IMG/VR virus record: IMGVR_UViG_3300044691_000566
Location: 95,747-159,746 of that record
Strand: one strand, 5' to 3'
DNA from: a virus
Length of the DNA stretch: 64,000 nucleotides
In this document: in pieces, positions 5,828 through 53,545 of the stretch
Numbering within the stretch: the first letter of the stretch is position 1
Layout: each line of letters begins with the position of its first letter
The notes under the pieces: model-generated
Databases searched by the model: none
Told to the model about the DNA's origin: nothing
Seen by the model: the letters and a program-made list of their open reading frames with translations, nothing else
Translations under genes and position numbers: made by a program

Positions 5828-5866
5828 CTTGTAGTACAGGACTTGACATCGTCAACTCCAAACGAA

Positions 5867-5970
5867 GGCCCCCGGATTTAAAAATCCGGGGGCCGTTCCC
5901 CTGCCCAGCCATGCCACGCCCAGCCAAACCCCACCGTGCCGGGCCATACCATGAGGCCCTGACTCTATCA
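5867..5970 (-). ncRNA. GGY/NN repeat RNA unit A5 (candidate guide)
   Basis: TGATAGAGTCA leader; NN = AT AT CC AC GG TT TG GT AT TG AG; hairpin GGCCCCCGGATTTTTAAATCCGGGGGCC. Confidence 0.75.
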
Positions 5971-5982
5971 TCTCCAACGACT

Positions 5983-6078
5983 GAGGGGCTCCCCGTAGGA
6001 AGCCCCTCCCATGCCTTGCCACGCCGAACCGGGCCCTGCCTTGCCCTGCCAGGGCATGCCAGGGCCTTGACCCTGTCA
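5983..6078 (-). ncRNA. GGY/NN repeat RNA unit A4
   Basis: TTGACA-N17-CAGGGT; NN = CT AT CT AG AA AG CC TC GT AA AT (one GCC triplet); cUACGg hairpin. Confidence 0.75.
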
Positions 6079-6104
6079 TCTCCAATGGCACCTGTCAAAC
6101 GACT

Positions 6105-6207
6105 GAGGGCGCCACCCCGAAGGATGACGCCCTCCCATGCCCCGCCTGGCCCTGCCAGACCTCGCCACGCCGAGCCTCGCCCAGCCCCGCAAGACCTGAC
6201 TCTGTCA
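6105..6207 (-). ncRNA. GGY/NN repeat RNA unit A3
   Basis: TTGACA-N17-CAGAGT; NN = GG TG GA TC GT GA CT AG CA GG AT; cUUCGg hairpin. Confidence 0.75.
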
Positions 6208-6231
6208 TCCCTGCCCGCATCTGTCAAAGCT

Positions 6232-6324
6232 GAGGGCGATCACCCGTAGATGATCGCCCTCCCATGCCCTGCCCGGCCAAGCCGAGCCGCGCCATGCCTA
6301 GCCCTGCAAGACCTGACTCTATCA
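6232..6324 (-). ncRNA. GGY/NN repeat RNA unit A2
   Basis: TGATAGAGTCA; NN = AG TA AT GC TC TT CG AG AT; cUACGg hairpin. Confidence 0.75.
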
Positions 6325-6335
6325 GCCCCAATGAC

Positions 6336-6436
6336 GAAGGGGCCCGAAGGACCCCTTCTCCCTGCCCTGCCCGGCCTAGCCCCACCGCGCCAGACCTTGC
6401 CCAGCCGTGCCTAGCCACGCGGCCCTGACTCTATCA
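6336..6436 (-). ncRNA. GGY/NN repeat RNA unit A1
   Basis: TGATAGAGTCA, whose TGA is the upstream ORF's stop; NN = GT TA AC TG AA CT GC GG TA CG AG AG; cUUCGg hairpin. Confidence 0.75.
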
Positions 6437-7883: not shown

Positions 7884-9278
7884 ATGACGACACCGCCCGG
7901 ATACTCGGGGCAGGAGATCGACACCGAGGGCGTATACGGCAACGCGGGTGCTGCTCCTCGGGGTACCCAGAACCTGGTCTCCAACACGGAGACCGCCACC
8001 CCGGCCGGTGCCGCATACGGTGGCGGCGCCAACGTCGTGACCGGCGGCACCCTCACCGGCACCCCGGACACCGAGGGGATCGGCACGGGCGCCAACGGCC
8101 CGTACGTGCCCAACCCGCCGCCGCTGCTCACCGGCACCCTGGACACCCAGACCCTGGGCTGGCCGCTGACCTCCGGGGTCACCCAGGCGTACCGGGCCCC
8201 CAACACCACCATCGGCCTGGTCGGTGCGGCCGGTGCGTTCGACACCACCCGCACCGACACCCCGATCACCGACGGCTCGATCCGCAACGACTACCAGCAG
8301 AACCTGAGCGGCACCCTGGAGTCGGGCAACATCGGCGCCATCGGCCCCGTCAGTGCCCTCGTGCCGGTCGCCCCCTCCGGCACCCCCACGGTGGCCGCAG
8401 GCGCCCGTACCGCGACCGTGACGTGGTCCACGGTGGCCGACCCGGACGCCACGGCGCCCGTGCTCGGATACGTGATCATCGGCTCCACGGGCGGCACCAC
8501 GTACACGGGCCGGGGCGTCACCACCGCCGTGGTGACCAACCTGGTCCCCGACCTGCCGTACTCGTTCCAGGTGCTGGCCCGGAACCGCAACGGCAACGGC
8601 CCGCTGGGCACCGCCTCCGCCACGGTGACGCCGTACAACCCGGACGAGCCGGACGTCGGCAAGCCCGGCGGCCTGGACCCGTACTGGGCCCAGAACCCGA
8701 TCTACGGCCCCGACGGCACCGTGAAGGCGGGCTCGGGCCTCGCGGGACGCCCCGCCGCGCCCACGAGCGTCGTCCTGACCGGCAATGGCACCGTGGGCGG
8801 CGTGGTGGCCACCTGGGTTGCCCCGGCGACCGGCGGCACCGTGAGCAGCTACACCGTCACCCTGTCCTCGGGACAGACCAAGTCGGTGTCGGCCAGCACC
8901 CTGACGACCACCTTCACCGGGGTCGCCAACGCCACCGCGATCACCGCGACGGTCACCTCGGTGGGTTCGGTGGCCAACGCCACCTCCACGGCTTCGGCTG
9001 TCTTCGGCAAGCCCACGGCCCCGGCGGCTCCCACCGCCACCAGCCCGTCGGCGGGCACCATCCACGTGGTGTGGACCGCCCCGACTTCGGGCGCCCCGAT
9101 CAACTACATCGTCACCCTCGCCGGTCAGGACACCACCTCCCACACGGTGGCGGGCACCATCTTGACCAACGACTTCACCGCCCTGACCACCGGCCACGTC
9201 GACACCGTCACGGTGGGGGCGCAGGGGTCGGTGTCCACCACCACCTCGGCCGCCTCCGGCAACGTCACCGTCACCTGA
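7884..9278 (+). CDS. fibronectin type III repeat virion protein
   Basis: Three Fn3-like repeats (ATVTWS...YSFQVLARNRNGNG; VATWVAP...SYTVT; VVWTAP...NYIVT). Confidence 0.8.
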   Translation: MTTPPGYSGQEIDTEGVYGNAGAAPRGTQNLVSNTETATPAGAAYGGGANVVTGGTLTGTPDTEGIGTGANGPYVPNPPPLLTGTLDTQTLGWPLTSGVTQAYRAPNTTIGLVGAAGAFDTTRTDTPITDGSIRNDYQQNLSGTLESGNIGAIGPVSALVPVAPSGTPTVAAGARTATVTWSTVADPDATAPVLGYVIIGSTGGTTYTGRGVTTAVVTNLVPDLPYSFQVLARNRNGNGPLGTASATVTPYNPDEPDVGKPGGLDPYWAQNPIYGPDGTVKAGSGLAGRPAAPTSVVLTGNGTVGGVVATWVAPATGGTVSSYTVTLSSGQTKSVSASTLTTTFTGVANATAITATVTSVGSVANATSTASAVFGKPTAPAAPTATSPSAGTIHVVWTAPTSGAPINYIVTLAGQDTTSHTVAGTILTNDFTALTTGHVDTVTVGAQGSVSTTTSAASGNVTVT

Positions 9279-10960: not shown

Positions 10961-11065
10961 TGATAGGGTCAGGTCCTGCAAGGCACGGCAGGGCTAGGCG
11001 AGGTCTGGCAGGGTACGGCTGGGCACGGCAGGGGGAGGGCGATCACCTACGGGTGGTCGCCCTCC
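10961..11065 (+). ncRNA. GGY/NN repeat RNA unit B1
   Basis: TGATAGGGTCA; NN = AA AC AG TA GA CT AG AC TG AC AG; cUACGg hairpin. Confidence 0.75.
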
Positions 11066-11089
11066 GTTGTTGACAGATCCAGTAGGACA

Positions 11090-11185
11090 TGACAGAGTCA
11101 AGTCGTCCTCATTCACCTGGGGCGGGCGTCGGTCGATCCGTGGTGCTCCCTTTCGCAACAAGGGCACGGATTGACCGACGTCTTT
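11090..11185 (+). ncRNA. non-repeat hairpin small RNA inside array B
   Basis: TTGACA-N17-CAGAGT leader, then an 18-bp stem GGCGTCGGTCGATCCGTG/CACGGATTGACCGACGTC with two G.U pairs and a TTT tail. Confidence 0.55.
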
Positions 11186-11204
11186 GTACTCCCGTCGGTA
11201 ACCC

Positions 11205-11288
11205 TGATAGAGTCAAGTCCTCGGCACGGCTAGGTAGGGCAGGGTTTGGTAGGGCAGGGAGAAGGGGTCCTCTACGGAGGACCCCTTC
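11205..11288 (+). ncRNA. GGY/NN repeat RNA unit B3
   Basis: TGATAGAGTCA; NN = TC AC TA AG AG TT AG AG; cUACGg hairpin followed by GTTTT. Confidence 0.75.
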
Positions 11289-11344
11289 GTTTTGCCCCCG
11301 CAGGCCCGGTAGAGTCCGGCCTCCACCGTCAGAGAGGACCCTCA

Positions 11345-11554
11345 ATGCCCGACAGCGAGATCATCAGGGACTGGTACACCTCCAGCGCCTGCGGGGCGAA
11401 CAACTCCTGCCTGGAGGCCCGCACTTACGCCGACGGGTCGGTCGAGATCCGCAACTCCCAGGACCCGAAGGGCACCCTCCTCCGGTTCACCGAGGACGAA
11501 TGGTCCGCCTTCCTCGTGGGCGCCCGCGCCGGGGAGTTTTCCACCGGGGCATGA
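11345..11554 (+). CDS. DUF397-family protein
   Basis: WYTSSACGANNSCLEA...VEIRNSQDP...LRFTEDEWSAFL matches the actinobacterial DUF397 consensus. Confidence 0.85.
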   Translation: MPDSEIIRDWYTSSACGANNSCLEARTYADGSVEIRNSQDPKGTLLRFTEDEWSAFLVGARAGEFSTGA

Positions 11555-11556
11555 CC

Positions 11557-11640
11557 TGATAGAGTCAAGTCCTCGGCTAGGCATGGCGGGGCTCGGCTTG
11601 GCACGGCAGGGAGAAGGGGTCCACTACGGTGGACCCCTTC
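11557..11640 (+). ncRNA. GGY/NN repeat RNA unit B4
   Basis: TGATAGAGTCA; NN = TC TA AT GG TC TT AC AG; cUACGg hairpin. Confidence 0.75.
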
Positions 11641-11656
11641 GTCGTTGGGAGGACGG

Positions 11657-11836
11657 ATGCGCATCGGTCAGGAGCCGCCCCGGCGGGAGAAGCTGCGGGG
11701 CTACGTGATCACCGGCTGCATCAAGTGCGGCGGCCGGTCCAAGTGGATCCGGCGTGGACCGCACGACTGCTGCTTGCGCAAGGACATGAGCCGGGCCCGG
11801 GAGAAGCAGGAATGGCGCCGGACCCTCAGGGATTGA
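11657..11836 (+). CDS. small basic Cys-rich protein (59 aa)
   Basis: RBS GGAGG; CIKC...HDCC; its stop is the TGA of the next leader. Confidence 0.6.
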   Translation: MRIGQEPPRREKLRGYVITGCIKCGGRSKWIRRGPHDCCLRKDMSRAREKQEWRRTLRD

Positions 11837-11932
11837 TAGAGTCAAGTCCCTGGCAAGGCTGGCCAAGGCCCGGTAGGGCACGGCTTGGCCCGGCAGGGCA
11901 GGGAGAAGAGCCCCACTACGGTGGGGCTCTTC
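11834..11932 (+). ncRNA. GGY/NN repeat RNA unit B5
   Basis: TGATAGAGTCA; NN = CT AA TG AA CC AG AC TT CC AG AG (one GCC triplet); cUACGg hairpin. Confidence 0.75.
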
Positions 11933-11956
11933 GTCGTTGACGGACCCCGCAGTTCA

Positions 11957-12070
11957 TGACAGAGTCAAGTCCTGCATGGCCGGGCGGGACGTGGCGCGGT
12001 GTGGCATGGCTAGGTAGGGCCGGGCAGGGCATGGGCTGTGGAGATGGGGCCTCTTTCGGGAGGCCCCATC
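11957..12070 (+). ncRNA. GGY/NN repeat RNA unit B6
   Basis: TTGACG-N17-CAGAGT; NN = AT CG GG GT GC GT AT TA AG CG AG AT (one GAC triplet); UUCG hairpin. Confidence 0.75.
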
Positions 12071-12074
12071 GTCT

Positions 12075-12172
12075 TGATAGAGTCAAGTCCCTGGCTGGGC
12101 TTGGTATGGCTGGGCTTGGCGTGGTGAGGCATGGCAGGGGGAGAGGGCCCGGATTTTTAAATCCGGGCCCTC
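12075..12172 (+). ncRNA. GGY/NN repeat RNA unit B7
   Basis: TGATAGAGTCA; NN = CT TG TT AT TG TT GT GA AT AG; hairpin GAGGGCCCGGATTTTTAAATCCGGGCCCTC. Confidence 0.75.
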
Positions 12173-12182
12173 CGCCATATGG

Positions 12183-12250: not shown

Positions 12251-12829
12251 ATGCAGGTCCGTTTGACTCTTACCGGAACCACATCGCTGCTCATGCACAA
12301 CGCGCGGCTGTCCGACCCGTTGGACCCCTACACCAAGATGCTCAAGGCCATCTCCTCCAAGCGCACCAAGACGGAGGACGACCACGACGACATGGCGCGC
12401 GTCGAATTCCTCGGCGGCCTGTACTTCGACCCGGAGGCCGGGCCGTACGTTCCCGGCGTCAACGTCCACCGCTGCCTGGTGGAGGGCGCCAAGCTCAACA
12501 AGCTGGGCCGCCACGTGGAGCGCGGCATCATCGCCCTGGACGAGATCTGCCCGCTGGGCTACGCGGGGCCGCGCACGGAGGAGGCGCTGTGGAAGGACAA
12601 AAACTTCGTCTCCCGGCTGTCCGTCGGCGTCACCACCTCGCGCGTCATGCGCACGCGCCCCGAATTCCCGGTGTGGGGCCTGGAGGCCGACATGCTGGTG
12701 GACACCGGCCAGCTCGACCTGGAGCAGGTCCGCACCATCGCCGAGAAGTCCGGACAGATGATCGGTCTCGGCGACTACCGTCCCCGGTTCGGGCGATTCA
12801 CCGTCGAGGTCGTCGAACTCCAGGGCTGA
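12251..12829 (+). CDS. stand-alone RAMP / Cas7-like RNA-binding protein (Vipr-like effector candidate)
   Basis: 192 aa; N-terminal strand VRLTLTGTTSLLMH, PYVPGVNVHRCL, RTRPEF..W and C-terminal G-rich loop IGLGDYRPRFGRFTV are RAMP hallmarks; adjacent to the GGY/NN array; RBS GGGAGG. Confidence 0.8.
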   Translation: MQVRLTLTGTTSLLMHNARLSDPLDPYTKMLKAISSKRTKTEDDHDDMARVEFLGGLYFDPEAGPYVPGVNVHRCLVEGAKLNKLGRHVERGIIALDEICPLGYAGPRTEEALWKDKNFVSRLSVGVTTSRVMRTRPEFPVWGLEADMLVDTGQLDLEQVRTIAEKSGQMIGLGDYRPRFGRFTVEVVELQG

Positions 12830-12868: not shown

Positions 12869-13432
12869 ATGGCCGCCAAGCCGTTCGAGCCCAAGGGCGA
12901 TGTCGCCCGCTGGGTCCCCGTCTACGAGAATCTGCGCGACCTGGAGCCGGGGGTGCTGGTCACGTACGAGCAGCTCTCGGAGTGGGCCGGAGTCGATGTC
13001 CGGCGCGACCGCAGCCCCCTCGTGCAGGCCGAGGACAAGCTCCTGAAGGAGCACGGGCGCGGCGTCGCCAACGAGCGGGGCGTGGGGTACCGGATCATGC
13101 TGGCCTCCGAACACGGTGAGGCCGCCCGGCGCCAGACCCGGAAGGCCGACCGCCGGATCAGGAAGGCCATAACCCTTCTGACCGTGGCCGACCGCAATCA
13201 CCTGACCCCGCAGCAGCGGCAGAAGTACGAGAGTCAGGCCGGGGCTCTCCAGGCCGTCCGGGACATGACCAACCGCCTGGCGCGGCGGACGGCCGCGCTG
13301 GAGGAGGGTCTGAAAGCGGTCCGTCGGGAGACCAAGGAGACCACGGCCGGTCTGTCCGACCGCTTGGAGCGGCTGGAGGCCCGGTTCGCGAACGTTCCGG
13401 GCGATGCCCCGGCGGACAGCACCACGACCTGA
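12869..13432 (+). CDS. winged-helix plus coiled-coil protein, co-transcribed with the RAMP gene
   Basis: VTYEQLSEWAG...NERGVGYRI wHTH-like N-terminus and long helical C-terminus; RBS GAAGGAGG. Confidence 0.7.
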   Translation: MAAKPFEPKGDVARWVPVYENLRDLEPGVLVTYEQLSEWAGVDVRRDRSPLVQAEDKLLKEHGRGVANERGVGYRIMLASEHGEAARRQTRKADRRIRKAITLLTVADRNHLTPQQRQKYESQAGALQAVRDMTNRLARRTAALEEGLKAVRRETKETTAGLSDRLERLEARFANVPGDAPADSTTT

Positions 13433-15338: not shown

Positions 15339-15424
15339 TGATAGAGTCAGGGCCTCGGTATGGCTGGGCCGGGCTCGGCTGGTCGGGGCATGGCAGGGGA
15401 GGCCCCCACTTCGGTGGGGGCCTC
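15339..15424 (+). ncRNA. dispersed GGY/NN repeat RNA unit C
   Basis: TGATAGAGTCA; NN = TC AT TG CG TC TG GG AT AG (one GTC triplet); cUUCGg hairpin. Confidence 0.7.
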
Positions 15425-15429
15425 AGCCG

Positions 15430-15463
15430 TGTCCGGGGTCCGGCGAGCCCGGTGAAGGGGTGA
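15430..15463 (+). promoter_or_regulatory. late-promoter motif TGTC-N20-GAAGGGGTGA
   Basis: Motif copy. Confidence 0.7.
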
Positions 15464-26196: not shown

Positions 26197-26897
26197 TGGG
26201 AGTCGCCTCGATCGGCTTCCCCCGGGGAGCGTCGCGCACGTTCCGGATCGACCCGGACTCGATCGACTACAACGTCACGGTGCACACGTCGGTGCAGCAG
26301 ACGGTGGGCGGCCGGGTCATCCAGATCCTGGGCACCTCCATCTCCGACGTCATCGTGCGGGGCTCCATCGGTGAGTCGCACACCCTCGGCCGGGACACCG
26401 ACGGCGAGCACAAGGGGACGTCCTGGAAGCTCGCCGTCGACTTCTTCCTGGCCATGCAGGGCTTGCAGCAGCTCCAGTCCAGCGGTTCGGCCACGCCCGG
26501 TCCCGCCACGAGGTCCGCCTTCCTCCAGCCCCTGACCTTCATCTACGCGCCGAAGAGCCTGCGCTTCCAGTGCTACATCAAGTCCATCGTGGACGCCGAC
26601 GGCGACGGAACAGCCGGTGTGGTGCACAAGGTGGGAAGGGCCAACTACCGGTACACCCTGACCCTGTTCCCGGTGCAGGAGGGCTCCACCAACCTGGTGA
26701 AGGCGGGGACGTCCAACGGTGTCCTGGACAAGGCCCGAGCCGCTGCAATCGACGCGTATATCGGACGTATATCGCAGGGTATCGGCTGGAAGTTCACCGC
26801 CTACAACGGCGGTTCCACTCCCGATGCCTCGTGGAACTCCGACTTCCAGAAATCGAACACGACTGTCACTCCGAATTCGACATTGGGGGGGGCATGA
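26196..26897 (+). CDS. baseplate/tube-initiator protein
   Basis: FRIDPDSI...QTVGGRVIQI; position after the tape measure gene. Confidence 0.55.
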   Translation: MGVASIGFPRGASRTFRIDPDSIDYNVTVHTSVQQTVGGRVIQILGTSISDVIVRGSIGESHTLGRDTDGEHKGTSWKLAVDFFLAMQGLQQLQSSGSATPGPATRSAFLQPLTFIYAPKSLRFQCYIKSIVDADGDGTAGVVHKVGRANYRYTLTLFPVQEGSTNLVKAGTSNGVLDKARAAAIDAYIGRISQGIGWKFTAYNGGSTPDASWNSDFQKSNTTVTPNSTLGGA

Positions 26898-27112
26898 CCG
26901 AGCCCACGCACTGGGGCGCCGACGTACCGATCTCCCTGCCTCAGCCGCTGACCGCCGACAACCCGGGCATCATCCCCATGGACGGCTTCTGCTTCACCTC
27001 CAGCGGGCTGTTCTTCGACCTCTCGGACGCCGACTACCAGCGGATCGCGGTGCCCGCGTACGCCCCGGCGCAGCCCAAGCACCAGACCATCCGCTACGAC
27101 GAGGGGCTGTAG
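26894..27112 (+). CDS. small hypothetical tail protein
   Basis: ATGA overlap; typical codon usage. Confidence 0.55.
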   Translation: MTEPTHWGADVPISLPQPLTADNPGIIPMDGFCFTSSGLFFDLSDADYQRIAVPAYAPAQPKHQTIRYDEGL

Positions 27113-27799
27113 GTGGTCCGGCTCGGGCTCAACACGAGCCTGACCTACCAGTACGGGGGCAAGAACTACGCCTTCAGCGTGCGCACCGCCGAGGTCGACT
27201 TCGGCTCCCAGATGGTCGCCGACGAGGCGCAGGCCCGCACCCGCAGGGCGTTCTACCCGCACACGGTCTCCGCCGTGCCCTTTTCCCTGGTGGTGATCAT
27301 CAAGGGGTACCGGGAGCGTGTGCAGTTCAGCAACTTCCTCAACGACTTCGTCAGCCGGACCCTGGACCCGTCCCTGTCGGTGAGCAGCTTCCCGACCATG
27401 CGCGTGCAGGTGGCCAGCCGGAACTTCATCCGCTGGGGGATCCCGCTGAGCGGCCTGGAGTGGGGGGACCACATCGGCTCGATGGTCTGGACGCCCCGGG
27501 TGGTGTTCGAGACCCACGTGGACCAGAGCCTGGGGGAGACCGTCAAGGACTACAAGTGGGTCTCGTACTTCCAGCTCGACGCCTCAGCCGTGCAGGCGTC
27601 GCCGCAGATCAAGTACTTCTACCCGAGCGGAGTCCAGCTCTCGGGCAGTCAGGTGCCGGACGCGGGGGCCTTTGACAAGGTCACCTCGATCCAGGACATT
27701 CAGAACATCATCAACGGGGGTACCAGCGGCGGTTCCGACGTCGGGTCCGTGGACCCGGTTACCGGGGTCAATCCCATCAACAACGGAATGCCGAGGTAA
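27113..27799 (+). CDS. minor tail/baseplate protein
   Basis: Operon position and codon usage. Confidence 0.55.
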   Translation: MVRLGLNTSLTYQYGGKNYAFSVRTAEVDFGSQMVADEAQARTRRAFYPHTVSAVPFSLVVIIKGYRERVQFSNFLNDFVSRTLDPSLSVSSFPTMRVQVASRNFIRWGIPLSGLEWGDHIGSMVWTPRVVFETHVDQSLGETVKDYKWVSYFQLDASAVQASPQIKYFYPSGVQLSGSQVPDAGAFDKVTSIQDIQNIINGGTSGGSDVGSVDPVTGVNPINNGMPR

Positions 27800-27802
27800 C
27801 CG

Positions 27803-30352
27803 GTGGCCTCCTTCCTGTACGCCCCACAATTGCAAGTCCTCATAGAGACCGGTGGCAACCTCAACCGGGGGAGCACCAAGACCACCGTGCTGGACGTCTC
27901 GGACGACCTGGTCGGCGGTCAGATGACGAGGCGGGTCGACGGCGTCTCCGACTTCTCTTTCACGCTGCTCAACCCCCGCAGGAAGTACGACGAGGTCTTC
28001 ACGCCGAACGACCGGATCACCGTGCTGATGAAGCGCGTGACCTGGGTCCGGGTGTTCACCGGGTATCTCAACCGGGTCCCGCTGCTGACCGCGTGGCCGC
28101 GCAACGTCACGCTGACGGCCTCGTGCTCCCTCAAGCGTCTCCAGTACTGGTACTGGGACCCGGAGTCGGCGTTCACCCAGCAGATGATCATGAACGCTCT
28201 GTCGGCGGCCTCCGGGACCGGGCAGACGTCCGACGGCGGCATGACCAATGTCGTCCTGTCGATTCTGAAGAACGTCGTCGGCTGGCCCGAGTCGAAAGCC
28301 CACATCGCCAAGATCCCCGACGACTGGTTCAAGGTCGCCTACAAGATCGCCGAAGCGGTCAACAAGACGGCCGCCGAGAGCGACCAGCTCGCCCAGCAGT
28401 TCTTCCAGTCCCTGGGGGGCGCCGGGACGGTGGGAACCAACGGCGGCCAGTCCTCTTCGGGCTCTCTCACCGGCAACTACGGCGAATTCAACGGGGCCGA
28501 CCAGAAGACCAACGCGGCCACCATCTACAACACCGGTCGCTCCATGGGCGCCACCGACCGGGACAACATCATCGCTCTGATGACGGCCATGCAGGAGTCC
28601 ACCCTGCACAACCTGACCCACGGCGACCGGGACTCCATCGGCCTGTTCCAGCAGAGGCCCTCCCAGGGCTGGGGCACCGTGGCGCAGATCCTCGATCCCG
28701 TCTACGCCTCCAAGCGCTTCTTCACCGCGCTGTTCAACATCGGCAACCGCGATCAGATGACCACCTCCCAGGCGGCCCAGGCGGTGCAGCGCTCGGCCTT
28801 CCCTCAGGCATATGCCAAGTGGGAGGGTGTCGCGACCCAGATGGTTGCCGACCTGAAGAAGTCCGGCGGCATCAACCCGATCACCTCCTCCGGGGTCCCG
28901 GGCGCCAACGCCATCGGCACCACCTCCAACAAGCAGATCGTCCAGGTCGCCAAGGACCTGGTGACGACCTACCCGACCATCCCGTACACCGAGAAGTACG
29001 GCGGCACCCAGGTATCCATCATCAGCATGAATCCCCCGCCCGGCCTGGACTGCTCGTCCTTCCAGCAGGCGGTGGTCCTGCGGTCCCTGGGCGGCTTGTA
29101 CGGCTTCCCCAGGACGTCGGAGACACAACTCCCCGCCTGCCGCGAGATACCCGTGGACGTGGCCCTCAAGACGCCGGGAGCGCTGCTCTTCAAGGGGTCT
29201 CCGCCGTTCCACGTGGAGATGTCCATCGGGGACGGCAAGAACGCGGTGGGGGCCCACCACACCGGGACGTTCGCCTCGATCGAGGCCACCTCGGCGGCCT
29301 ACTGGGACCACGGCGGCCTGATCCCCCGGGTGGACTACGGGAAGCTGGGCCAGGGGGACGGATCGACGGGCGGCGGCCTGACCACCGGCACCCCTGGCTC
29401 CAGCGCGGCCAACAGTTCCAGCATCTACACCGATCAGTACAGCAACACGCCCGGCTACAACCCGAACGACCCCTTCGACCGTCTTTTCGGGGACACCGCC
29501 TGGGGAGCCCTGGCCGCCCAGAAGAGCGACCCGGCCTACATCATCAGCCAGTCCCTGACCGGCGTGAAGAGCCTGCTCAACGACCAGCCGCTGCTGCCCT
29601 ACCTCAAAAACCTGTTCAGCTCCGGCATGCGGTCGTTCTCCTCGGCCCCCAACGGGGACCTCATCTCATGGTTCCCGGACTACTACGGCCTGTGGGGGAC
29701 CGCCGCGACGATGACCCTCCAGCCGATCGAGATCAAGGACTTCTCCGTCGACTGGGACGACAGTTTCTTCGTCACCCACCAGTTCACCGCGACCACCCCG
29801 CAGGGCGGCGCCGGGCAGAACGTGCTGGACCTGTCCACCGGCCAGGTCTCCTCCCAGGCGAGCGCGGCCCTGGATCCGCTGGTGGTGGCCCAGAGCCTGA
29901 GCTACACCCGGGGCATCGCCTCGATCGACATACCGGCCCTGATGTACGCGCTTTTTAAAATCTCCCCGACGACGGCCCAGGCCGCCAACTTCGCCAAGTT
30001 CATCTACCAGCGCTTCGGGGCCCGCCCCGACTTCCAGAGCCTCCCCAACCTGGTGGGCCCCAGCGCCCAGTTCTTCGCCGCGATCTACTTCTTCATGCGG
30101 CAGTGGGCCTACCAGTACAACGCCGATATCCCGCTGACCTTCATGCCCGAGCTGTTCCCCGGCATGCTGGTCAAGATCCCGGCCTTCTCCTTCCAGGCGT
30201 ACGTCAACCAGGTCACGCACACCTTCCAGATGGGCGACGGCGGCTACTTCAACACCACCATCAACATCTCGGCCCCGGCCAAGCTCAACGACACCGGGGC
30301 AGCGGCCAACGTCCTCATCGGCCTGCCCCGTGCGGGCGGACTGCTCGGCTGA
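27803..30352 (+). CDS. baseplate hub with lysozyme-like and NlpC/P60-like peptidoglycan hydrolase inserts
   Basis: IALMTAMQES...DRDSIGLFQQRPSQGWG...AAQAVQRSAFP; GLDCSSF...HVEM; C-terminal FMPELFPGM hub motif. Confidence 0.8.
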   Translation: MASFLYAPQLQVLIETGGNLNRGSTKTTVLDVSDDLVGGQMTRRVDGVSDFSFTLLNPRRKYDEVFTPNDRITVLMKRVTWVRVFTGYLNRVPLLTAWPRNVTLTASCSLKRLQYWYWDPESAFTQQMIMNALSAASGTGQTSDGGMTNVVLSILKNVVGWPESKAHIAKIPDDWFKVAYKIAEAVNKTAAESDQLAQQFFQSLGGAGTVGTNGGQSSSGSLTGNYGEFNGADQKTNAATIYNTGRSMGATDRDNIIALMTAMQESTLHNLTHGDRDSIGLFQQRPSQGWGTVAQILDPVYASKRFFTALFNIGNRDQMTTSQAAQAVQRSAFPQAYAKWEGVATQMVADLKKSGGINPITSSGVPGANAIGTTSNKQIVQVAKDLVTTYPTIPYTEKYGGTQVSIISMNPPPGLDCSSFQQAVVLRSLGGLYGFPRTSETQLPACREIPVDVALKTPGALLFKGSPPFHVEMSIGDGKNAVGAHHTGTFASIEATSAAYWDHGGLIPRVDYGKLGQGDGSTGGGLTTGTPGSSAANSSSIYTDQYSNTPGYNPNDPFDRLFGDTAWGALAAQKSDPAYIISQSLTGVKSLLNDQPLLPYLKNLFSSGMRSFSSAPNGDLISWFPDYYGLWGTAATMTLQPIEIKDFSVDWDDSFFVTHQFTATTPQGGAGQNVLDLSTGQVSSQASAALDPLVVAQSLSYTRGIASIDIPALMYALFKISPTTAQAANFAKFIYQRFGARPDFQSLPNLVGPSAQFFAAIYFFMRQWAYQYNADIPLTFMPELFPGMLVKIPAFSFQAYVNQVTHTFQMGDGGYFNTTINISAPAKLNDTGAAANVLIGLPRAGGLLG

Positions 30353-44295: not shown

Positions 44296-46880
44296 CGGCT
44301 ACGGCGACCGAGGCCCCCTCCGGCCAGTCGCCGGAGGGGGCTCTCTACTTTTCGCCTCGCGGTCTGTACCCGTTCCAGGCCGACCACATAGCGCGGATCT
44401 ACCTGGGCATCCAGTCCGGCATACCGGAGTGGATGATCGTCTGGGACACCGGGCTGGGGAAGGCGGAGCCCATATCCGAGCCCGTGCTGACTCCGGTTGG
44501 CTGGGTTCCCATGGGCGACTTGCGAGTGGGACATCAGGTCATCGCGGCGAACGGCCGACCGGCGAAGATCCTTGCTGTGCACCCGCAGGAGTCCCGCGAG
44601 GTGTACCGAGTGGCCTTCTCCGACGGCTCCTGGACCAGGTGCAGTCCCGAACACCTGTGGACGGTCTCCTACTGGGGACCTGACCGATCCTCGGGCAAGC
44701 AGGTTCGGGTCCGGCGGAGCAAGACCGTCACCTTGCGCCAGCTCATGGCTGAGGGGGTCACCACTCCGAAGGGGCGTCGGAAGTTCTCCATCCCCATGAC
44801 CGCCCCGGTGCAGTACCCGGAGCGCAATCTGCCCATGGACCCGTATGCCCTCGGGGTCGTCCTCGGCGACGGCAATGTGAACCCTCGCGGATATGTCTCG
44901 CTGACCACCGACAAGGAGATCATCGACGCCTTGGCCGTCCCGGGGTCCCGGTACGAACACCGTTCTGCTGGCGTGGCGGTCCTGAACACCAACGCGTGGA
45001 GAGAGGTCCTGACGGGCCTCGGACTGGCCGGACGCCGGGCCTGGGAGAAGTCCGTCCCAGAGATCTACCTGCGAGCCCCAGAGGACAGCCGCAGGGCCCT
45101 CCTGGCCGGTTTGCTGGACACGGACGGGTCGCCGATCGAAGAGGGCGGAGTCGAGTTCTCCACGACCTCAGAGGCCCTGCTGGACGCGGTGATCGAGCTG
45201 ACCGAGTCGCTCGGCGGACAGGCCCGCAGCAAATCGTCTCGGTTCACGACCTACACGCACAACGAGGAGACGAAGCGGGGGCGCAAGTCCTGGCGGGTAA
45301 ACGTCAAGCTCAACGAGCAGCCGTTCCGTCTGGCGCGCAAGATGATCCGCTGGACCGAGCCGACTAAGTACCCGGTCCAGCGAATCATCGAGTCCATCGA
45401 GCGCGTGGAGGATGAGGATTCGGTCTGCATCACCATCGACCGCTCAGACGGCCTCTACCTCACCCGCAGCCACATCGTCACGCACAACAGCCATGCCGCC
45501 ATGCGGCTGACCACCCTCGGCTTCGAGGACGACGCGGTGGACTTCGTGCTGCTGGTGTGCGAGCGGGGGAAGCTCAAGGAGTGGCAGGCGGACTTCGAGG
45601 AGTTCACCACGCTCGACACCCGGATCCATCACGGGCCGTCCCGGAACGGGAAGCTGGCCAAGCTCGGGCTACCTCAGGTCTTGATCACCACCTTCGAGAC
45701 CGGCAAGGCCGATCTGGTGGTGATGGAGAAGACCGGCCGCAAGCGGCGCACGTTCGAGACCGGTCCGCTGCTCACGCGGATACTCGAACACTCCAGACGT
45801 CCCATGATCATCTTCGACGAGGCCGACCGGCTGAGCAACCGGTCGGCCGCAAACTATCGGGCGTATGAACACGTCCTCAGGACCTTCCGTAAGGTTTTTA
45901 AAATCCCCGTCCTCATGCTGACCGGGACTCCGATCCGGCGGGACTGGGAGGGCTCATTCAACCAGCTCCGCCTGCTCCGACCTGCATCAATGCCTCTCGT
46001 AGGGGAGTTCGAAAAGTACTTCGTACGGGGGAGGGACGACTACGGCCGGGCCCGGTACCACGACTACCGCATGCCGGAGTTCGCCAACCTCTGCTCGCCC
46101 ATGCTGCTGGCCAAGTCCAAGACCGACCCCGACGTCATCGCCCAGTTCCCCGTGTCGACCGAGGAGGCGTTCTGGGTGGACCTGGAGGGGGAGCAGAGGA
46201 AGTTCTACGATTTTGTCGCGGAGCTGGACGCCCCGGGTCAGATGGCGGCTCTCCGGCAGATCTGCGCCCACCCGGCGGCCCTCCTCCACTCGGCCACCGA
46301 GGGCAAGTCCAAGCTGGCCAGGGCCCTCGTGGACGAGTTCGGCGAGGACTACATACGCTCGCTGCCCTCGGCGAAAACCGACGCCCTGGTCCGCTACGTG
46401 GAGCCGATCGTCAAAGGTCAGGACGCCAAGGTTCTGGTCTTCACCTTCTTCGGCCCCTCGGTGATACCGCACCTGCGCGCGGCACTGACCGCCCGGCACG
46501 TCCCGGTCTTCACCCACGACGACGAAGACGGCATCGAGAATTTTAAGAAGCACCCGGGGGGTGGCGTCCTGCTCGCCTCCGACGCGGTGGCCCGGGGGAT
46601 CAACCTGCCCGAGGCCAGCTACCTGATCGAGTACGACGTGGCTTCGACGTTCGGCCTGCGGACCCAGCGGCTGAACCGGGCCTCCAGGATCGGCAAGGGC
46701 GGCCCCACACTCACCATCCGGACCATGCTGGCGCGGGAGAGCCTTGAGATCGCGCTGCTGCACAACATGCTGGAGGGCAACGCCCAGGCCGACGCCCTGC
46801 TCGGTCACGGTGTGGACGGCTCGGAGTTCATGACGGCCGCCATGCGGCGGAAGATCCTCACCGAGGGCATGGGGGAATGA
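44292..46880 (+). CDS. SNF2-like SF2 helicase interrupted by an intein
   Basis: LYPFQ, DTGLGK|S (split by the intein), FDEAD, LTGTP, ARGINL, QRLNRASRIG. Confidence 0.85.
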   Translation: MTATATEAPSGQSPEGALYFSPRGLYPFQADHIARIYLGIQSGIPEWMIVWDTGLGKAEPISEPVLTPVGWVPMGDLRVGHQVIAANGRPAKILAVHPQESREVYRVAFSDGSWTRCSPEHLWTVSYWGPDRSSGKQVRVRRSKTVTLRQLMAEGVTTPKGRRKFSIPMTAPVQYPERNLPMDPYALGVVLGDGNVNPRGYVSLTTDKEIIDALAVPGSRYEHRSAGVAVLNTNAWREVLTGLGLAGRRAWEKSVPEIYLRAPEDSRRALLAGLLDTDGSPIEEGGVEFSTTSEALLDAVIELTESLGGQARSKSSRFTTYTHNEETKRGRKSWRVNVKLNEQPFRLARKMIRWTEPTKYPVQRIIESIERVEDEDSVCITIDRSDGLYLTRSHIVTHNSHAAMRLTTLGFEDDAVDFVLLVCERGKLKEWQADFEEFTTLDTRIHHGPSRNGKLAKLGLPQVLITTFETGKADLVVMEKTGRKRRTFETGPLLTRILEHSRRPMIIFDEADRLSNRSAANYRAYEHVLRTFRKVFKIPVLMLTGTPIRRDWEGSFNQLRLLRPASMPLVGEFEKYFVRGRDDYGRARYHDYRMPEFANLCSPMLLAKSKTDPDVIAQFPVSTEEAFWVDLEGEQRKFYDFVAELDAPGQMAALRQICAHPAALLHSATEGKSKLARALVDEFGEDYIRSLPSAKTDALVRYVEPIVKGQDAKVLVFTFFGPSVIPHLRAALTARHVPVFTHDDEDGIENFKKHPGGGVLLASDAVARGINLPEASYLIEYDVASTFGLRTQRLNRASRIGKGGPTLTIRTMLARESLEIALLHNMLEGNAQADALLGHGVDGSEFMTAAMRRKILTEGMGE
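44463..45488 (+). mobile_element. class 3-type intein with a LAGLIDADG homing endonuclease (342 aa)
   Basis: Starts AEPISEPVLTP, ends IVTHN|S; EHLW (block B Trp), SVCITID (block F Cys), LLAGLLDTDG. Confidence 0.85.
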
Positions 46881-46881
46881 C

Positions 46882-46968
46882 GAAGAGGTCCTCCGTAGAG
46901 GACCTCTTCTCCCTGCCGTGCCTGGCCTCGCCTCGCCTAGCCATGCCCCGCAAGACCTGACTCTATCA
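46882..46968 (-). ncRNA. dispersed GGY/NN repeat RNA unit D
   Basis: TGATAGAGTCA; NN = GG AT TA GA GA CA AC AG; cUACGg hairpin. Confidence 0.7.
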
Positions 46969-47991: not shown

Positions 47992-48019
47992 CATGCCCGG
48001 GAACGAGAGGTCCAACAAC

Positions 48020-48121
48020 GAAGGGGACCACCCGGAGGTGGTCCCCTTCTCCCTGCCAAGCCAAGCCCCGCCACGCCATACCCTGCCGCGCCTCGCCATG
48101 CCTCAAGACCTGACTCTATCA
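48020..48121 (-). ncRNA. dispersed GGY/NN repeat RNA unit E
   Basis: TGATAGAGTCA; NN = GA AT GA GC AG AT GT GG TT TT AG; cUCCGg hairpin. Confidence 0.7.
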
Positions 48122-48555: not shown

Positions 48556-48585
48556 GGGCGTGTTGGTCGCGTCACGCAGAATGAC

Positions 48586-48686
48586 GAAGGGGCACCCCCG
48601 TAGAGGTGCCCCTTCTCCCTGCCGTGCCAAGCCCTACCCTGCCCTGCCATGCCAGGCCGAGCCATGCCAAGGACTTGACTCTATCA
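48586..48686 (-). ncRNA. dispersed GGY/NN repeat RNA unit G
   Basis: TGATAGAGTCA, whose TGA is the antirepressor stop; NN = TT AT TC CT AT AG AG AG TT AC AG; cUACGg hairpin. Confidence 0.7.
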
Positions 48687-50982: not shown

Positions 50983-53145
50983 ATGCCAGAGAGCGACACC
51001 GAGGAGGGCCCTATGACCGTTGTGGACACCGTGACCCAGCTCCCGCACATACCCGAGAACTTCTCCGTCGTGGAGGGGGCCTTCGCCGCGCACCTGCCGG
51101 GCTACGAGCCCCGCAAGCCGCAGCAGGCCATGGCGAGCGCGATCGAGGTGGCCCTGGCCGACAGCAGGTCCCTCTACGTGCAGGCGGGCTGCGGTACCGG
51201 CAAGTCCCTCGGCGGCATGGTCCCCGCGCTCCTCCAGGCCCTGCACCAGAAGACCCGCCTCATCGTGGCCACGGCCACCAAGGCCCTCCAGGAGCAGTAC
51301 GCCAACAGCGACATTCCGTTCCTCCAGGAGCACTCCGGCATCCCCTTCACCTGGGCGCTGGTCAAGGGCCGCAGCAATTACACCTGCCAGGTCAAGCTGA
51401 ACAGCGACGACATGGAGCACGACGCCACCGCCCAGGCCGTCAAGGCCGAGCTGGCCGCCGACGAGGAGCACTCCGGCGACCGCGAGCACTTCGGTGTCCA
51501 GATCGACGACCTGGCCTGGCGGAAGCTCTCCAGCGGCAGCAGCGAGTGCCCGGGAAAATCCCAGTGCCCGTTCGGCGAGGTCTGCTACGCCGAGAAGGCC
51601 AAGAAGAAGGGCAACGAGTCCGACCTGGTGATCACCAACCAGGCGATGCTCGCCACCGACCTGGTCATCCGGGAGAAGACGCGGAGCGAGAACAGCGACG
51701 GCATCGCGATGCTCGGCGACTACGGCATCGTCCTCCTGGACGAGGGCCACGAGTGGCCGGAGATCGTGGCCAACACGCTGGGCAACGAGTTCACCCCGCG
51801 CGGGGTGCCCTTCCTCCTGCGGGACGCGCTGTCGTTCGTCTCCCTGCACGGCGGCAACGGGGACGACGAGAACCCTGCTGCGGCGGCCATGCAGCAGCGG
51901 GTCGACGAGTGCTCGAAGATCATGAACCAGCTCGACGAGCTGGCCCTCCCGCTGGTCGGCGAGGCCCTGACCCAGAGCTGGTTCGTCGACCACTACGGCC
52001 CCTTCGCGGACCTGAACGACCTGCTCAAGTCGGTCTACCTGGACCTGCGGGGCGTGAAGGTCCGCAACGACGTGGACCGCCAGCAGGGCAAGCTGAAGCT
52101 GCTGCTGACCCGCATCGAGAACACCCTCAAGGTCCTGGAGGAGCTGCTGTTCTCCGAGGACCACGAGCGCGTCCGCTGGGTCGATGGCTACAAGGTCCGC
52201 GAGGAGGACCACTGGCGCCTGAAGGTCGCGCCGGTCGACGTGGCCCCGTTCCTGACGAAGATGCTCTGGGAGGAGACCCCCACCATCGTGATGTCCGCGA
52301 CCCTGTCGGCGGGCAAGGACCGGAACGGCAACGCGGACTTCGGCTACATCAAGCGGACCTCGGGCCTGGAGGACGCCGGGACGGTGGACGTCGGCACCCC
52401 GTTCGACCTCCCGAAGCAGGCCCGCATGTTCGTGCCCGCCCCCACCCAGCCGTCCCCCAAGGAGTACGGCGCCTGGTCCGGCTACGCGATCCGGACGACC
52501 CTGGAACTGGTCGACGCCGCCAAGGGCGGGGCGCTGCTGCTCTACACGAGCCGCAAGGCGATGGAGGCCGCGCACGAGGACCTCAAGGACCGCCTGGAGG
52601 ACCGGGGGTTGACCGTGCTCATGCAGGGCGACGGCCGGAGCAACAAGGAGCTGGCGAAGATCTTCAAGGCGGACACCCACTCGGTGTTGTTCGCTCTGAA
52701 AAGTTTTTTCGTCGGAGTGGACGTCCCCGGTGACGCCTGCCGCCTGGTCATTGTGGACAAGCTGCCTTTTCCGGTCCCTTCCGACCCGATCTTCCAGGCG
52801 CGTGCCCTGGCCGAGGAGCGGGCCGGACGCCGGTCCTTTTCGACCCTGAGCATCCCGATGATGACCCTGTCGCTGGAGCAGGCCGTCGGCCGCCTGATCC
52901 GGACAAAGACCGACAAAGGCGTGGTTGCGATCTTGGACAGTCGCCTGACCAGCACCCCGTACGGCCGGGGCATCGTCACCGCCCTGCCGAACTTCCCGGT
53001 GACCACCAAGATCAGCGACGTCCAGGAGTTCTACGGCGGCCAGACGACTTCCGACCGCCCGGAGTCCACGCTCGCCGACCTGGCGGCCGGGCCCCAGGCG
53101 ACCGTGGGAGAGGTCACCACGGCTTGGAAGAACGGCCTCCGGTGA
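50983..53145 (+). CDS. dinG: DinG/YoaA-family helicase
   Basis: GYEPRKPQ, QAGCGTGKS, TATKALQEQ, KGRSNY.C, FeS cysteines, LDEGH, SATL, GVDVPG, DKLPF, QAVGRLIR. Confidence 0.9.
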   Translation: MPESDTEEGPMTVVDTVTQLPHIPENFSVVEGAFAAHLPGYEPRKPQQAMASAIEVALADSRSLYVQAGCGTGKSLGGMVPALLQALHQKTRLIVATATKALQEQYANSDIPFLQEHSGIPFTWALVKGRSNYTCQVKLNSDDMEHDATAQAVKAELAADEEHSGDREHFGVQIDDLAWRKLSSGSSECPGKSQCPFGEVCYAEKAKKKGNESDLVITNQAMLATDLVIREKTRSENSDGIAMLGDYGIVLLDEGHEWPEIVANTLGNEFTPRGVPFLLRDALSFVSLHGGNGDDENPAAAAMQQRVDECSKIMNQLDELALPLVGEALTQSWFVDHYGPFADLNDLLKSVYLDLRGVKVRNDVDRQQGKLKLLLTRIENTLKVLEELLFSEDHERVRWVDGYKVREEDHWRLKVAPVDVAPFLTKMLWEETPTIVMSATLSAGKDRNGNADFGYIKRTSGLEDAGTVDVGTPFDLPKQARMFVPAPTQPSPKEYGAWSGYAIRTTLELVDAAKGGALLLYTSRKAMEAAHEDLKDRLEDRGLTVLMQGDGRSNKELAKIFKADTHSVLFALKSFFVGVDVPGDACRLVIVDKLPFPVPSDPIFQARALAEERAGRRSFSTLSIPMMTLSLEQAVGRLIRTKTDKGVVAILDSRLTSTPYGRGIVTALPNFPVTTKISDVQEFYGGQTTSDRPESTLADLAAGPQATVGEVTTAWKNGLR

Positions 53146-53426
53146 CCCGGCCGGTGCTGTACTTCGTGCTCGCGTGCTCCCGGCACCAGTCCATGGACTG
53201 GTGCCGGGAGCACGACGTTCGCCCTCACCGGCCCGGGGTCTCCATCGATAATCGCGAGGAACCGGTGGCGCTCCACGTCACAGACATCCAGCGGCTCCGG
53301 GGCCTCCAGGGGTCCGGCCCCATTGAGGTCGTCACGACGGGGAACTGGTATCACCTCCGGGCTTCCGGAGAACTGCTGGAGGTCGCCGAGCGCATTGCCC
53401 AGGTCGCCAACGAGGACAGGTCCTGA
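53142..53426 (+). CDS. hypothetical protein
   Basis: GTGA overlap with the dinG stop; its stop is the TGA of the next leader. Confidence 0.55.
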   Translation: MTRPVLYFVLACSRHQSMDWCREHDVRPHRPGVSIDNREEPVALHVTDIQRLRGLQGSGPIEVVTTGNWYHLRASGELLEVAERIAQVANEDRS

Positions 53427-53532
53427 TAGAGTCAGGACTACATGGTGCGGCTTGGCCTGGTGAGGCGTGGCTAGGCAGGGCAAGGCATGGGTATGGACAG
53501 TGGCTCTCCTCCGGATGGGGGAGAGCCACTGT
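53424..53532 (+). ncRNA. dispersed GGY/NN repeat RNA unit H
   Basis: TGATAGAGTCA; NN = AT GC TT CT GA GT TA AG AA AT; hairpin ACAGTGGCTCTCC...GGAGAGCCACTGT. Confidence 0.7.
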
Positions 53533-53545
53533 TGCGTTTTGGGGG

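What the first reader, a model, noticed from the sequence alone, without database searches (positions are those of the whole stretch)
52534..53532. Guide H decodes to the neighbouring DinG motif LLYTSRKAM, but the phage's own DNA differs at the Leu/Ser/Arg codons
Seen: unit H (53424-53532) has NN = AT GC TT CT GA GT TA AG AA AT. The reverse complement with one skipped base per pair is ATn TTn CTn TAn ACn TCn AGn AAn GCn ATn, which can be read as (I/M)-L-L-Y-T-S-R-K-A-M. The dinG gene ~900 bp upstream reads CTG CTG CTC TAC ACG AGC CGC AAG GCG ATG = L-L-L-Y-T-S-R-K-A-M (52534-52563), in frame. The first pair comes from the unit's constant 3' end and is set aside. The other nine residues are all compatible, 14 of 18 specified bases match, and the mismatches fall only in Leu (TT/CT), Ser (TC/AG) and Arg (AG/CG). 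These are the only residues whose first two codon bases can change synonymously. Inference: the guide pairs with codon positions 1-2 and skips the wobble base. It would target dinG of a related competitor phage while this phage escapes by synonymous recoding.
Basis: partly seen in the sequence, partly recalled or inferred. Interest (0 to 1): 0.93.

Follow-up and report, generated by a model that had tools for sequence, protein, structure and literature searches.

The report
VIPR guide RNA aimed at rivals' dinG
Unit H is a guide-RNA gene of a VIPR system (a CRISPR-related, phage-borne DNA silencer first described in 2026 preprints); its code matches a conserved stretch of the dinG helicase gene in related phages better than in its own phage, so it is a well-supported new example of a known kind of inter-phage weapon.

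Summary
Unit H has ten YNNGG repeats.

The GGY/NN units are not new. This 160-kb soil phage encodes a Vipr protein with a Cas7-like fold, 38% identical to that of phage SUSP1, a vap-like gene and 20 vrRNAs.

At nucleotide level the self match is background. Related phages' dinG reaches 16-18/20 in at least 20 contigs. It is the only hit in whole genomes, and 0 of 6000 shuffles reach 18. One close relative carries the predicted Ser TCC and Arg AGG. No exact target exists in the three collections, and no site-specific recoding signal was found.

Two sibling phages show the same design: a guide lies beside its own copy of the gene it hits in the sibling.

This scan has noted VIPR in at least 82 other genomes.

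The parts
53423..53440 (+). Promoter-like box of unit H (TGATAGAGT extended -10 type, inside a short palindrome)
   Evidence: The same box precedes all 20 vrRNA units and at least one protein gene. A generic sigma-70 scan finds nothing, so promoter function is inferred from conservation and position.
53441..53490 (+). Guide tract of vrRNA H: ten exact YNNGG repeats
   Evidence: Period 5, with GG plus a pyrimidine fixed and NN variable.
53491..53545 (+). 3' tail of vrRNA H: a 17-bp GC-rich hairpin, then a U-rich run. It probably serves as terminator and tail.
   Evidence: -57.3 kcal/mol, z = -5.55, and 0 of 200 shuffles fold as well. The tail sequence differs from the other 19 units.
51013..53145 (+). 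dinG (XPD/Rad3-type SF2 helicase; 710 aa as called, with an in-frame ATG also at 50983)
   Evidence: PF00270 and PF13307. 333 relatives were found, and many lie on contigs of about 150 kb.
52534..52563 (+). Own-genome counterpart of the guide H target. It codes LLLYTSRKAM and matches guide H at 15/20 NN bases (75%).
   Evidence: The block GGALLL-[YF]-TS is invariant in 40 aligned relatives.
52633..52661 (-). Site in this phage's dinG (coding GRSNKELAKI) predicted to be hit by the vrRNA of a related phage (contig G6/L135) at 17/20
53124..53426 (+). Small ORF (100 aa) between dinG and unit H. Most relatives read have an 80-99 aa gene at this position; three (L235, L239, L241) have none called.
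   Evidence: No family was found.
12251..12829 (+). vipr: 192-aa minimal RAMP (Cas7-like) protein, the effector that loads vrRNAs
   Evidence: phrog_4652, E = 1e-57. 38-39% identity to the array-flanked genes of phages SUSP1 and wV8, E = 3e-42 and 1e-50. The AF2 model has pLDDT 94, and its listed PDB matches are chains of type III (Csm/Cmr, III-D) and type VII CRISPR effector complexes, Csm3 among them.
12869..13432 (+). vap-like accessory gene (187 aa; N-terminal part plus a coiled-coil C-terminus)
   Evidence: Syntenic with wV8 gp94 and with Gordonia phage MakoManhole gp77 ('DNA binding protein'), at 26-27% identity, E = 5e-6 and 1e-7. phrog_5926.
10962..12175 (+). Cluster of six vrRNA units just upstream of vipr, each with its own box and hairpin
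5850..6435 (-). Cluster of five vrRNA units
15340..15440 (+). Solitary vrRNA unit (one imperfect repeat)
46860..46967 (-). Solitary vrRNA unit. It lies beside the end of an SF2 helicase gene (about 45486-46871).
48005..48120 (-). Solitary vrRNA unit
48575..48685 (-). Solitary vrRNA unit

Best explanation
Unit H is an independently promoted gene for a VIPR guide RNA (vrRNA).

How it should work, by homology with the characterised SUSP1 system: copies of the phage's 192-aa Vipr protein line up along the RNA. Each copy holds one GGY triplet and presents the neighbouring NN pair. The filament then binds double-stranded DNA whose sequence pairs with the NN dinucleotides while every third base is skipped, and this blocks transcription.

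The ten NN pairs of H spell, in codon register with the wobble base skipped, the block that codes (M/L)LLYTSRKAM at the start of the second helicase domain of DinG. This block is among the most conserved in that gene family. Related phages of about 100-160 kb from soil metagenomes match at 80-90% of the read bases and are the likely targets. Silencing a replication or repair helicase of a co-infecting relative would favour the carrier.

The carrier's own dinG encodes the identical peptide but matches only 75%, no better than random sites in its genome. The shortfall against the best targets comes from Ser AGC instead of TCC, Arg CGC instead of AGG, and Leu instead of Met at the first codon.

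Shown here: the anatomy, the homology of Vipr, its fold, and the statistics of the matches. Inferred from the published system: RNP assembly, DNA binding, repression, and the idea that 75% is too low to act on.
For: System identity:
- 20 units share one architecture: box, 8-12 YNNGG repeats and a hairpin.
- The pattern gives 117 matches against 3 expected.
- The Vipr homologue was confirmed by sequence against SUSP1 and wV8, both flanked by GGY/NN arrays, and by fold.
- A vap-like gene lies next door.

Target:
- Own-genome amino-acid match of 9/10, against at most 8/12 for the other 19 guides. It is rare in shuffles.
- 18/20 in L146, L149, L173 and L212, and 16-17/20 in at least 17 more dinG loci.
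- In five whole related records the only hit with 3 or fewer mismatches is dinG, with zero control hits.
- In complete genomes G2 and G4 the next best site is 13-14/20.
- 0 of 6000 shuffled guides reach 18/20 on G2; the maximum is 17.
- In 1.8 Mb of fetched loci, H has 21 hits at 85% or more, all of those listed being in dinG loci. No other guide with k of 10 or more has any.

Self versus non-self:
- Own site 15/20. No guide has an above-chance self hit.

Independent replicates in sibling phages:
- The G6 guide lies just downstream of its dinG. It hits the dinG of sibling G7 at 18/20, ours at 17/20 and its own at 16/20.
- The G7 guide lies about 90 bp from its own SF2 helicase gene. It hits the G6 copy at 19/20 and its own at 14/20.
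- Both of these guides have the sense of the coding strand, so they cannot pair with mRNA. This fits DNA targeting.
Against: - No perfect target was found in IMG/VR, JGI metagenome contigs or GTDB genomes. The best are two mismatches short.
- The gap between self (15/20) and the targets (16-18/20) is only one to three bases. The mismatch tolerance of this clade is unknown, and the structural paper's main text does not mention mismatches.
- H has a tail unlike the other 19 units, so loading by Vipr is assumed.
- There is no expression data: no RNA run is listed.
- The host is unknown, so co-infection with the predicted targets is assumed.
- The family-wise significance of the own-genome match alone is only about 0.04-0.13.
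Confidence: 0.75

Rival explanations
1. Autoregulation. H acts on the phage's own neighbouring dinG, for example to shut it off late in infection. The better matches in relatives would then be a by-product of homology.
For: H lies about 280 bp downstream of dinG. All three guides with identified targets lie beside their own copy of the targeted gene. The own site still matches 75%, and the tolerance for mismatches is unknown.
Against: A self-regulator should match self best. In all three cases the self score is lower than the sibling score (15 versus 18, 16 versus 18, 14 versus 19). The own site is no better than random sites in the genome. The papers find no self hits at 80% or more.
Confidence: 0.1
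2. Chance. The resemblance between the NN string of H and the dinG motif is a coincidence picked out from many possible readings.
For: The nucleotide-level self match (15/20) is ordinary. The family-wise p of the amino-acid match in the own genome is only about 0.04-0.13. No exact target exists anywhere searched.
Against: 18/20 in codon register on a conserved motif is the unique hit in whole related genomes. 0 of 6000 shuffles reach it. The nineteen other guides serve as decoys and give nothing comparable. Two sibling phages show the same design.
Confidence: 0.05
3. H is a decayed or non-loaded guide: a relic whose original target has drifted, or an RNA that this phage's Vipr does not use because its tail differs.
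For: The tail sequence is unique among the 20 units. Two mismatches remain against every known target.
Against: All ten repeats are perfect YNNGG. The box and the strong hairpin are intact. Experimentally active SUSP1 guides average 89% on their natural targets, the same level as H.
Confidence: 0.08

Closest known systems
VIPR systems, especially type II of Escherichia phage SUSP1 (bioRxiv 10.64898/2026.04.26.720920; structures in 10.64898/2026.04.26.720927)
   Same: Minimal RAMP protein (38% identical here), an adjacent small DNA-binding-type accessory gene, vrRNAs of GGY/NN repeats followed by a structured 3' end, targets read with one skipped base aligned to codon wobble positions, rival mobile elements as targets, and no self hit at 80% or more.
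   Different: The phage is a high-GC, 160-kb soil phage. Its 20 vrRNAs are scattered over the genome, each with its own promoter-like box and a simple hairpin of varying sequence, not the conserved pseudoknot tail. The target is an essential helicase gene that the carrier also has, with the same peptide. Type assignment by phylogeny was not done.
Solo vrRNAs of VIPR-null SUSP1-like phages that target relatives' vipr or vrRNAs and score lower on self (bioRxiv 10.64898/2026.10.15.759431)
   Same: A guide aimed at close relatives, wobble-aligned on a coding sequence, with a self score below the non-self score. The guide sits at the locus of the targeted gene.
   Different: There, self-immunity comes from deletion of the target gene. 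Here the target gene is kept and is essential, and the self/non-self difference lies in codon-family choice (Ser, Arg) or, in the G6/G7 pair, in amino-acid changes.
CRISPR class 1 Cas7 backbones (type III Csm3/Cmr4, type VII)
   Same: The RAMP fold of the protein, and one protein per fixed step of guide RNA with periodic unpaired positions.
   Different: There is no CRISPR array, no other cas genes next to it, a 5-nt step with only 2 read bases, and a target step of 3.
Free-standing homing endonucleases of T-even phages that cut relatives' alleles next to their own resistant allele (marker exclusion). From my own knowledge, not tested here.
   Same: The weapon gene is linked to an immune allele of the gene it attacks in co-infecting relatives.
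   Different: RNA-guided binding rather than a protein nuclease. No evidence here of cleavage or gene conversion.

Membership tests
VIPR | vrRNA made of tandem 5-nt units with fixed GGY and variable NN (9-16 units in the paper) | tested here: met
   H has 10 exact units. The 20 units of the genome have 8-12.
VIPR | NN hypervariable between related elements while GGY is kept | tested here: met
   vrRNAs at the same slot downstream of dinG in L135, L212 and L214 have unrelated NN strings.
VIPR | Conserved structured 3' tail after the repeats | tested here: inconclusive
   Every unit ends in a GC-rich hairpin. For H, z = -5.55. The tail sequence varies within this phage, and no pseudoknot was examined.
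VIPR | Vipr protein: a minimal RAMP homologous to the described Vipr | tested here: met
   E = 3e-42 to the array-flanked gene of SUSP1 and E = 1e-50 to wV8 gp95. The AF2 model has pLDDT 94, and its listed PDB matches are chains of type III and type VII CRISPR effector complexes, Csm3 among them.
VIPR | vap accessory gene next to vipr | tested here: met
   A 187-aa gene lies directly downstream. It is weakly similar (26-27% identity) to the genes in the same position in wV8 and MakoManhole.
VIPR | Targets obey the 1-nt skip rule, mostly with the skipped base at the codon wobble position | tested here: met
   The hits of H, of the G6 guide and of the G7 guide are all in frame with the skipped base at position 3. 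Other skip lengths were not compared.
VIPR | Natural targets at 80% NN match or more on competing mobile elements, and none on the carrier's own genome | tested here: met
   80-90% on dinG of related phage contigs. Own-genome best scores are at shuffle level.
VIPR | vrRNA is expressed and co-purifies with Vipr, and the RNP binds dsDNA and represses transcription | not testable with these tools
   No RNA run holds the stretch. This needs bench work.
CRISPR-Cas | Array of direct repeats of 20 nt or more separated by unique spacers, with a cas operon | tested here: not met
   Only 5-nt periodic units were found. The neighbours of vipr are vrRNAs and one small gene.
TRAP-type protein-binding leader or sponge RNA | Triplet repeats with non-informative spacers that bind a ring protein | tested here: not met
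   The spacers carry information: they spell in-frame gene motifs of relatives far beyond shuffles. The associated protein is a RAMP.

The most novel reading that the evidence does not exclude
In these phages, a guide and a resistant allele of its target travel as one linked cassette, like a poison-antidote pair. Each vrRNA sits beside the carrier's own copy of the essential gene it silences in sibling phages. Recombination during co-infection therefore cannot separate the weapon from the immunity. Where the peptide is invariant, as at the dinG block, immunity can rest only on Ser, Arg or Leu codon-family choice. All three guides whose targets I could identify follow this layout: H, the G6 guide and the G7 guide.
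Probability: 0.35. Interest if true: 0.65.

Novelty: new member of a known kind. Interest (0 to 1): 0.45.

Why it matters
This case extends VIPR, so far characterised in E. coli and Pseudomonas phages, to a family of large high-GC soil phages. It is a clean natural example in which carrier and target share an essential gene with an identical peptide.

The published argument is that skipping the wobble base closes off synonymous escape. This case shows the remaining loophole: six-fold-degenerate Ser, Arg and Leu codons. It also shows that this loophole is what separates self from non-self here.

The recurring placement of a guide next to its own resistant allele, seen three times out of three, suggests how such weapons stay safe for their carrier. 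That idea is testable with simple reporter assays.

Tried and rejected
- **TRAP-like ring-protein binding site, sRNA sponge or G-quadruplex RNA.** These were my first readings. I dropped them once the literature search found VIPR and the NN strings proved informative.
- **Rfam.** No family matched in the window.
- **Megablast of the region against GenBank phages.** No match.
- **The search for related loci with the single DinG protein.** Nothing found. An alignment was needed.
- **Exact nine-pair gapped pattern.** 0 hits in IMG/VR. There were 7 hits in metagenome contigs and 5 in genomes, all low-GC and unrelated, and 8 of the 12 carry an in-frame stop.
- **Site-specific recoding signal.**
  - The motif Ser is TCN in 31 and AGY in 12 of 43 relatives, needing at least 7 switches on the tree.
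  - Other invariant Ser columns show 34/8 and 35/8.
  - Among the seven closest relatives, 12 of 15 invariant Ser, 4 of 19 Arg and 10 of 39 Leu columns mix codon families.
  - So nothing singles out the target site.
- **Other 19 guides.** No target found in the own genome, in two complete and two partial related genomes, or in 1.8 Mb of loci.
- **Guides at the dinG slot in L212 and L214.** They do not hit dinG in the available loci.
- **Single-sequence AF2 of Vipr.** Useless, pLDDT 32.
- **Generic sigma-70 and terminator scan.** Nothing found around H.
- **Sequencing runs.** No RNA holder is listed; read laying was not used.
- **Whole records of L212 and L214.** These are not held, so they could not be scanned.
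Full report
**What is in the sequence**

Unit H occupies 53423-53545 on the + strand. It has three parts:
- a conserved box of the extended -10 type;
- ten exact five-base units (pyrimidine, two variable bases, GG) at 53441-53490;
- a 17-bp GC-rich hairpin followed by a U-rich run. The folding z-score is -5.55, and none of 200 shuffles folds as well.

The upstream ORF (50983/51013-53145) is a DinG/XPD-type helicase with Pfam DEAD and Helicase_C_2 domains. It reads LLLYTSRKAM at 52534-52563, in frame. The counts of 14/18 bases and nine compatible residues are correct, and all ten pairs give 15/20.

**The unit is one of a family**

A five-base-period pattern occurs 117 times in the window, against 3 expected. 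The window is the last 64 kb of a 159,746-bp IMG/VR phage with terminal repeats and about 67% GC.

The genome holds 20 units of the same build: box, 8-12 repeats and a hairpin. Sixteen lie in the window, and six of those sit directly upstream of a small gene pair. The same box also precedes a protein gene, so it is most simply a phage promoter. That is an inference; a generic sigma-70 scan finds nothing. Rfam has no match. More than 120 IMG/VR contigs, with GC from 0.40 to 0.71, carry such arrays.

**It is a known system**

A full-text search for the repeat formula found three bioRxiv preprints of 2026 on VIPR systems. They report the following:
- vrRNAs consist of 9-16 YNNGG repeats plus a tail.
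- A minimal RAMP protein, Vipr, polymerises along the RNA. It holds each GGY and presents each NN.
- The complex binds double-stranded DNA in which every third base is skipped. Either strand can be bound, there is no PAM, and transcription is silenced.
- The skipped base usually falls on the codon wobble position.
- Natural targets lie on competing phages, prophages and satellites.
- The working cut-off is 80% of read bases. Active SUSP1 guides average 89% on their satellites.
- No guide hits its own contig at 80% or more.

**Membership was tested here**

- The 192-aa gene at 12251-12829 matches phrog_4652 over its full length (E = 1e-57).
- It is 38-39% identical to the gene flanked by GGY/NN arrays in phage SUSP1 (E = 3e-42) and in the Felixounavirus wV8 (E = 1e-50).
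- With an alignment of 35 homologues, AlphaFold gives pLDDT 94. All listed PDB matches are chains of type III (Csm/Cmr, III-D) and type VII CRISPR effector complexes, Csm3 among them.
- The next gene (12869-13432) is weakly similar to the genes in the same position in wV8 and in Gordonia phage MakoManhole, where it is annotated as a DNA-binding protein.

**Is the H-dinG match more than chance?**

At nucleotide level in the own genome it is not. Random guides of ten pairs usually find a 14-15/20 site somewhere in 160 kb.

At amino-acid level it is unusual. A score of 9/10 compatible residues was reached by 0 of 600 order shuffles, 4 of 600 guides drawn from the pooled NN, and 1 of 600 uniform guides. 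The other 19 guides reach at most 8/12. Over 20 guides this is only borderline.

The decisive evidence comes from relatives:
- The block GGALLL-[YF]-TS is invariant in 40 aligned DinG relatives.
- I read the codons of 50 related dinG genes, fetched from IMG/VR and other public assemblies.
- Four contigs reach 18/20, and at least 17 more reach 16-17/20.
- In three contigs the first codon is Met.
- In five whole related phage records, the only site with three or fewer mismatches is dinG, and a reversed control pattern gives none.
- In two complete genomes the next best site scores 13-14/20.
- None of 6000 shuffled guides reaches 18/20 on one of those genomes.
- In 1.8 Mb of fetched DNA, guide H has 21 hits at 85% or more, and all of those listed lie in dinG loci. 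No other guide of ten or more pairs has any.

**Self versus non-self**

Ten phages form the closest clade. All encode LLLYTSRKAM, apart from a Met at the first position in L239. Their scores range from 15 to 18 of 20. The differences come mostly from Ser TCC versus AGC and Arg CGN versus AGG, plus the first codon (Leu TTG in L212 and L240, Met ATG in L239).

The own phage, with AGC and CGC, is at the bottom with 15. L212, with TCC and AGG, is at the top with 18.

The prediction fails for Leu. No relative has a TTR codon at the position concerned, so that mismatch is common to self and targets.

The exact nine-pair pattern is absent from IMG/VR. In JGI metagenome contigs and GTDB genomes it occurs only in 12 unrelated low-GC sequences, about the number expected by chance.

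**Was the own gene 'recoded' to escape?**

I found no sign of that as a process.
- On a tree of 43 DinG sequences, the Ser codon family at the motif switches at least seven times. However, two other invariant Ser columns are similarly mixed.
- Among the seven closest relatives, 12 of 15 invariant Ser, 4 of 19 Arg and 10 of 39 Leu columns carry both codon families.
- Codon-family differences therefore abound throughout the gene.

The simpler reading is that fast-changing guides exploit differences that already exist.

**Independent replicates**

A related phage (G6, locus L135) has a vrRNA at the same slot just after its dinG. Read in the sense direction, it spells GRTNKELA, another conserved DinG block. 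It scores 18/20 on its sibling G7, 17/20 on this phage's dinG (52633-52661) and 16/20 on its own gene.

G7 carries a vrRNA about 90 bp from the end of its SF2 helicase gene. That guide matches the G6 copy of the gene at 19/20, next to helicase motif III. Its own copy differs by three amino acids there and scores 14/20.

So all three guides with identifiable targets follow one layout: the guide sits beside the carrier's own copy of the targeted gene and scores lower on it than on the sibling's. This argues against autoregulation and suggests a linked weapon-plus-immune-allele cassette.

The two sense-oriented guides cannot pair with mRNA, which fits DNA targeting. The two complete target genomes, G2 and G4, showed no array of five or more repeats in my scan.

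**Limits**

- There is no expression evidence; only DNA runs from soil metagenomes hold the stretch.
- The host is unknown.
- Mismatch tolerance is unknown for this clade.
- H has a tail unlike the other units.
- The targets of the other 19 guides were not found.

**Verdict**

The system is already described, so this is a new member of a known kind. Its instructive feature is self/non-self discrimination on a shared invariant peptide through six-fold-degenerate codons.

This scan has noted VIPR-type arrays in at least 82 other genomes, including one case of a guide beside a recoded target.

Noticed in passing
window 11958-12070 (+): The vrRNA unit here, read antisense with one skipped base, spells M-L-R-L-Y-M-T-A-T-P-R-M, which resembles helicase motif III. 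This is another first-stage note, and I confirmed the decoding. It has no good match in the own genome (16/24 at best) or in the related genomes fetched.
   Followed up: partly
window 52633-52661 (-): This phage's own dinG is a predicted target (17/20) of the vrRNA of a related phage (IMG/VR contig behind L135/G6). These phages appear to aim at each other.
   Followed up: yes
G6 (L229-L231) about 8233-8262; G7 (L232-L234) 26789 and 26879-28756: Sibling contigs G6 and G7 target each other. The G7 guide hits the G6 SF2 helicase at 19/20. The G6 guide hits G7 dinG at 18/20. Each guide lies beside its own, lower-scoring copy of the gene.
   Followed up: yes
window 45486-46967: A solitary vrRNA (46860-46967, minus strand) sits next to the end of this phage's homologue of the helicase targeted in G6. 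This is the same slot as the G7 guide. Its own target was not found.
   Followed up: partly
window 11091-11205 (+) and 48554 (-): The promoter-like box also precedes a stretch of about 110 nt without GGY repeats (11091) and a protein-coding gene (48554). A related longer palindromic box recurs at least seven times in the part of the genome before the window.
   Followed up: no
DinG alignment of seven close relatives (OWN, L212, L214, L235-L238): Twelve of 15 invariant Ser columns carry both TCN and AGY codons at only about 70% protein identity. I could not tell whether this near-saturated switching is ordinary for such phages or related to VIPR pressure.
   Followed up: partly
loci L009-L128 (IMG/VR): GGY/NN arrays occur in more than 120 viral contigs. 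Architectures vary: units joined by short constant linkers (for example L012, L034), or arrays ending directly at the ribosome-binding site of a gene (for example L025, L033, L038). L047 is a false positive, a simple GGCCC repeat.
   Followed up: no
G2 and G4 (L194-L209): The two complete related phages of about 155 kb that H matches best showed no array of five or more YNNGG repeats in my scan. I did not search them for a vipr gene.
   Followed up: partly
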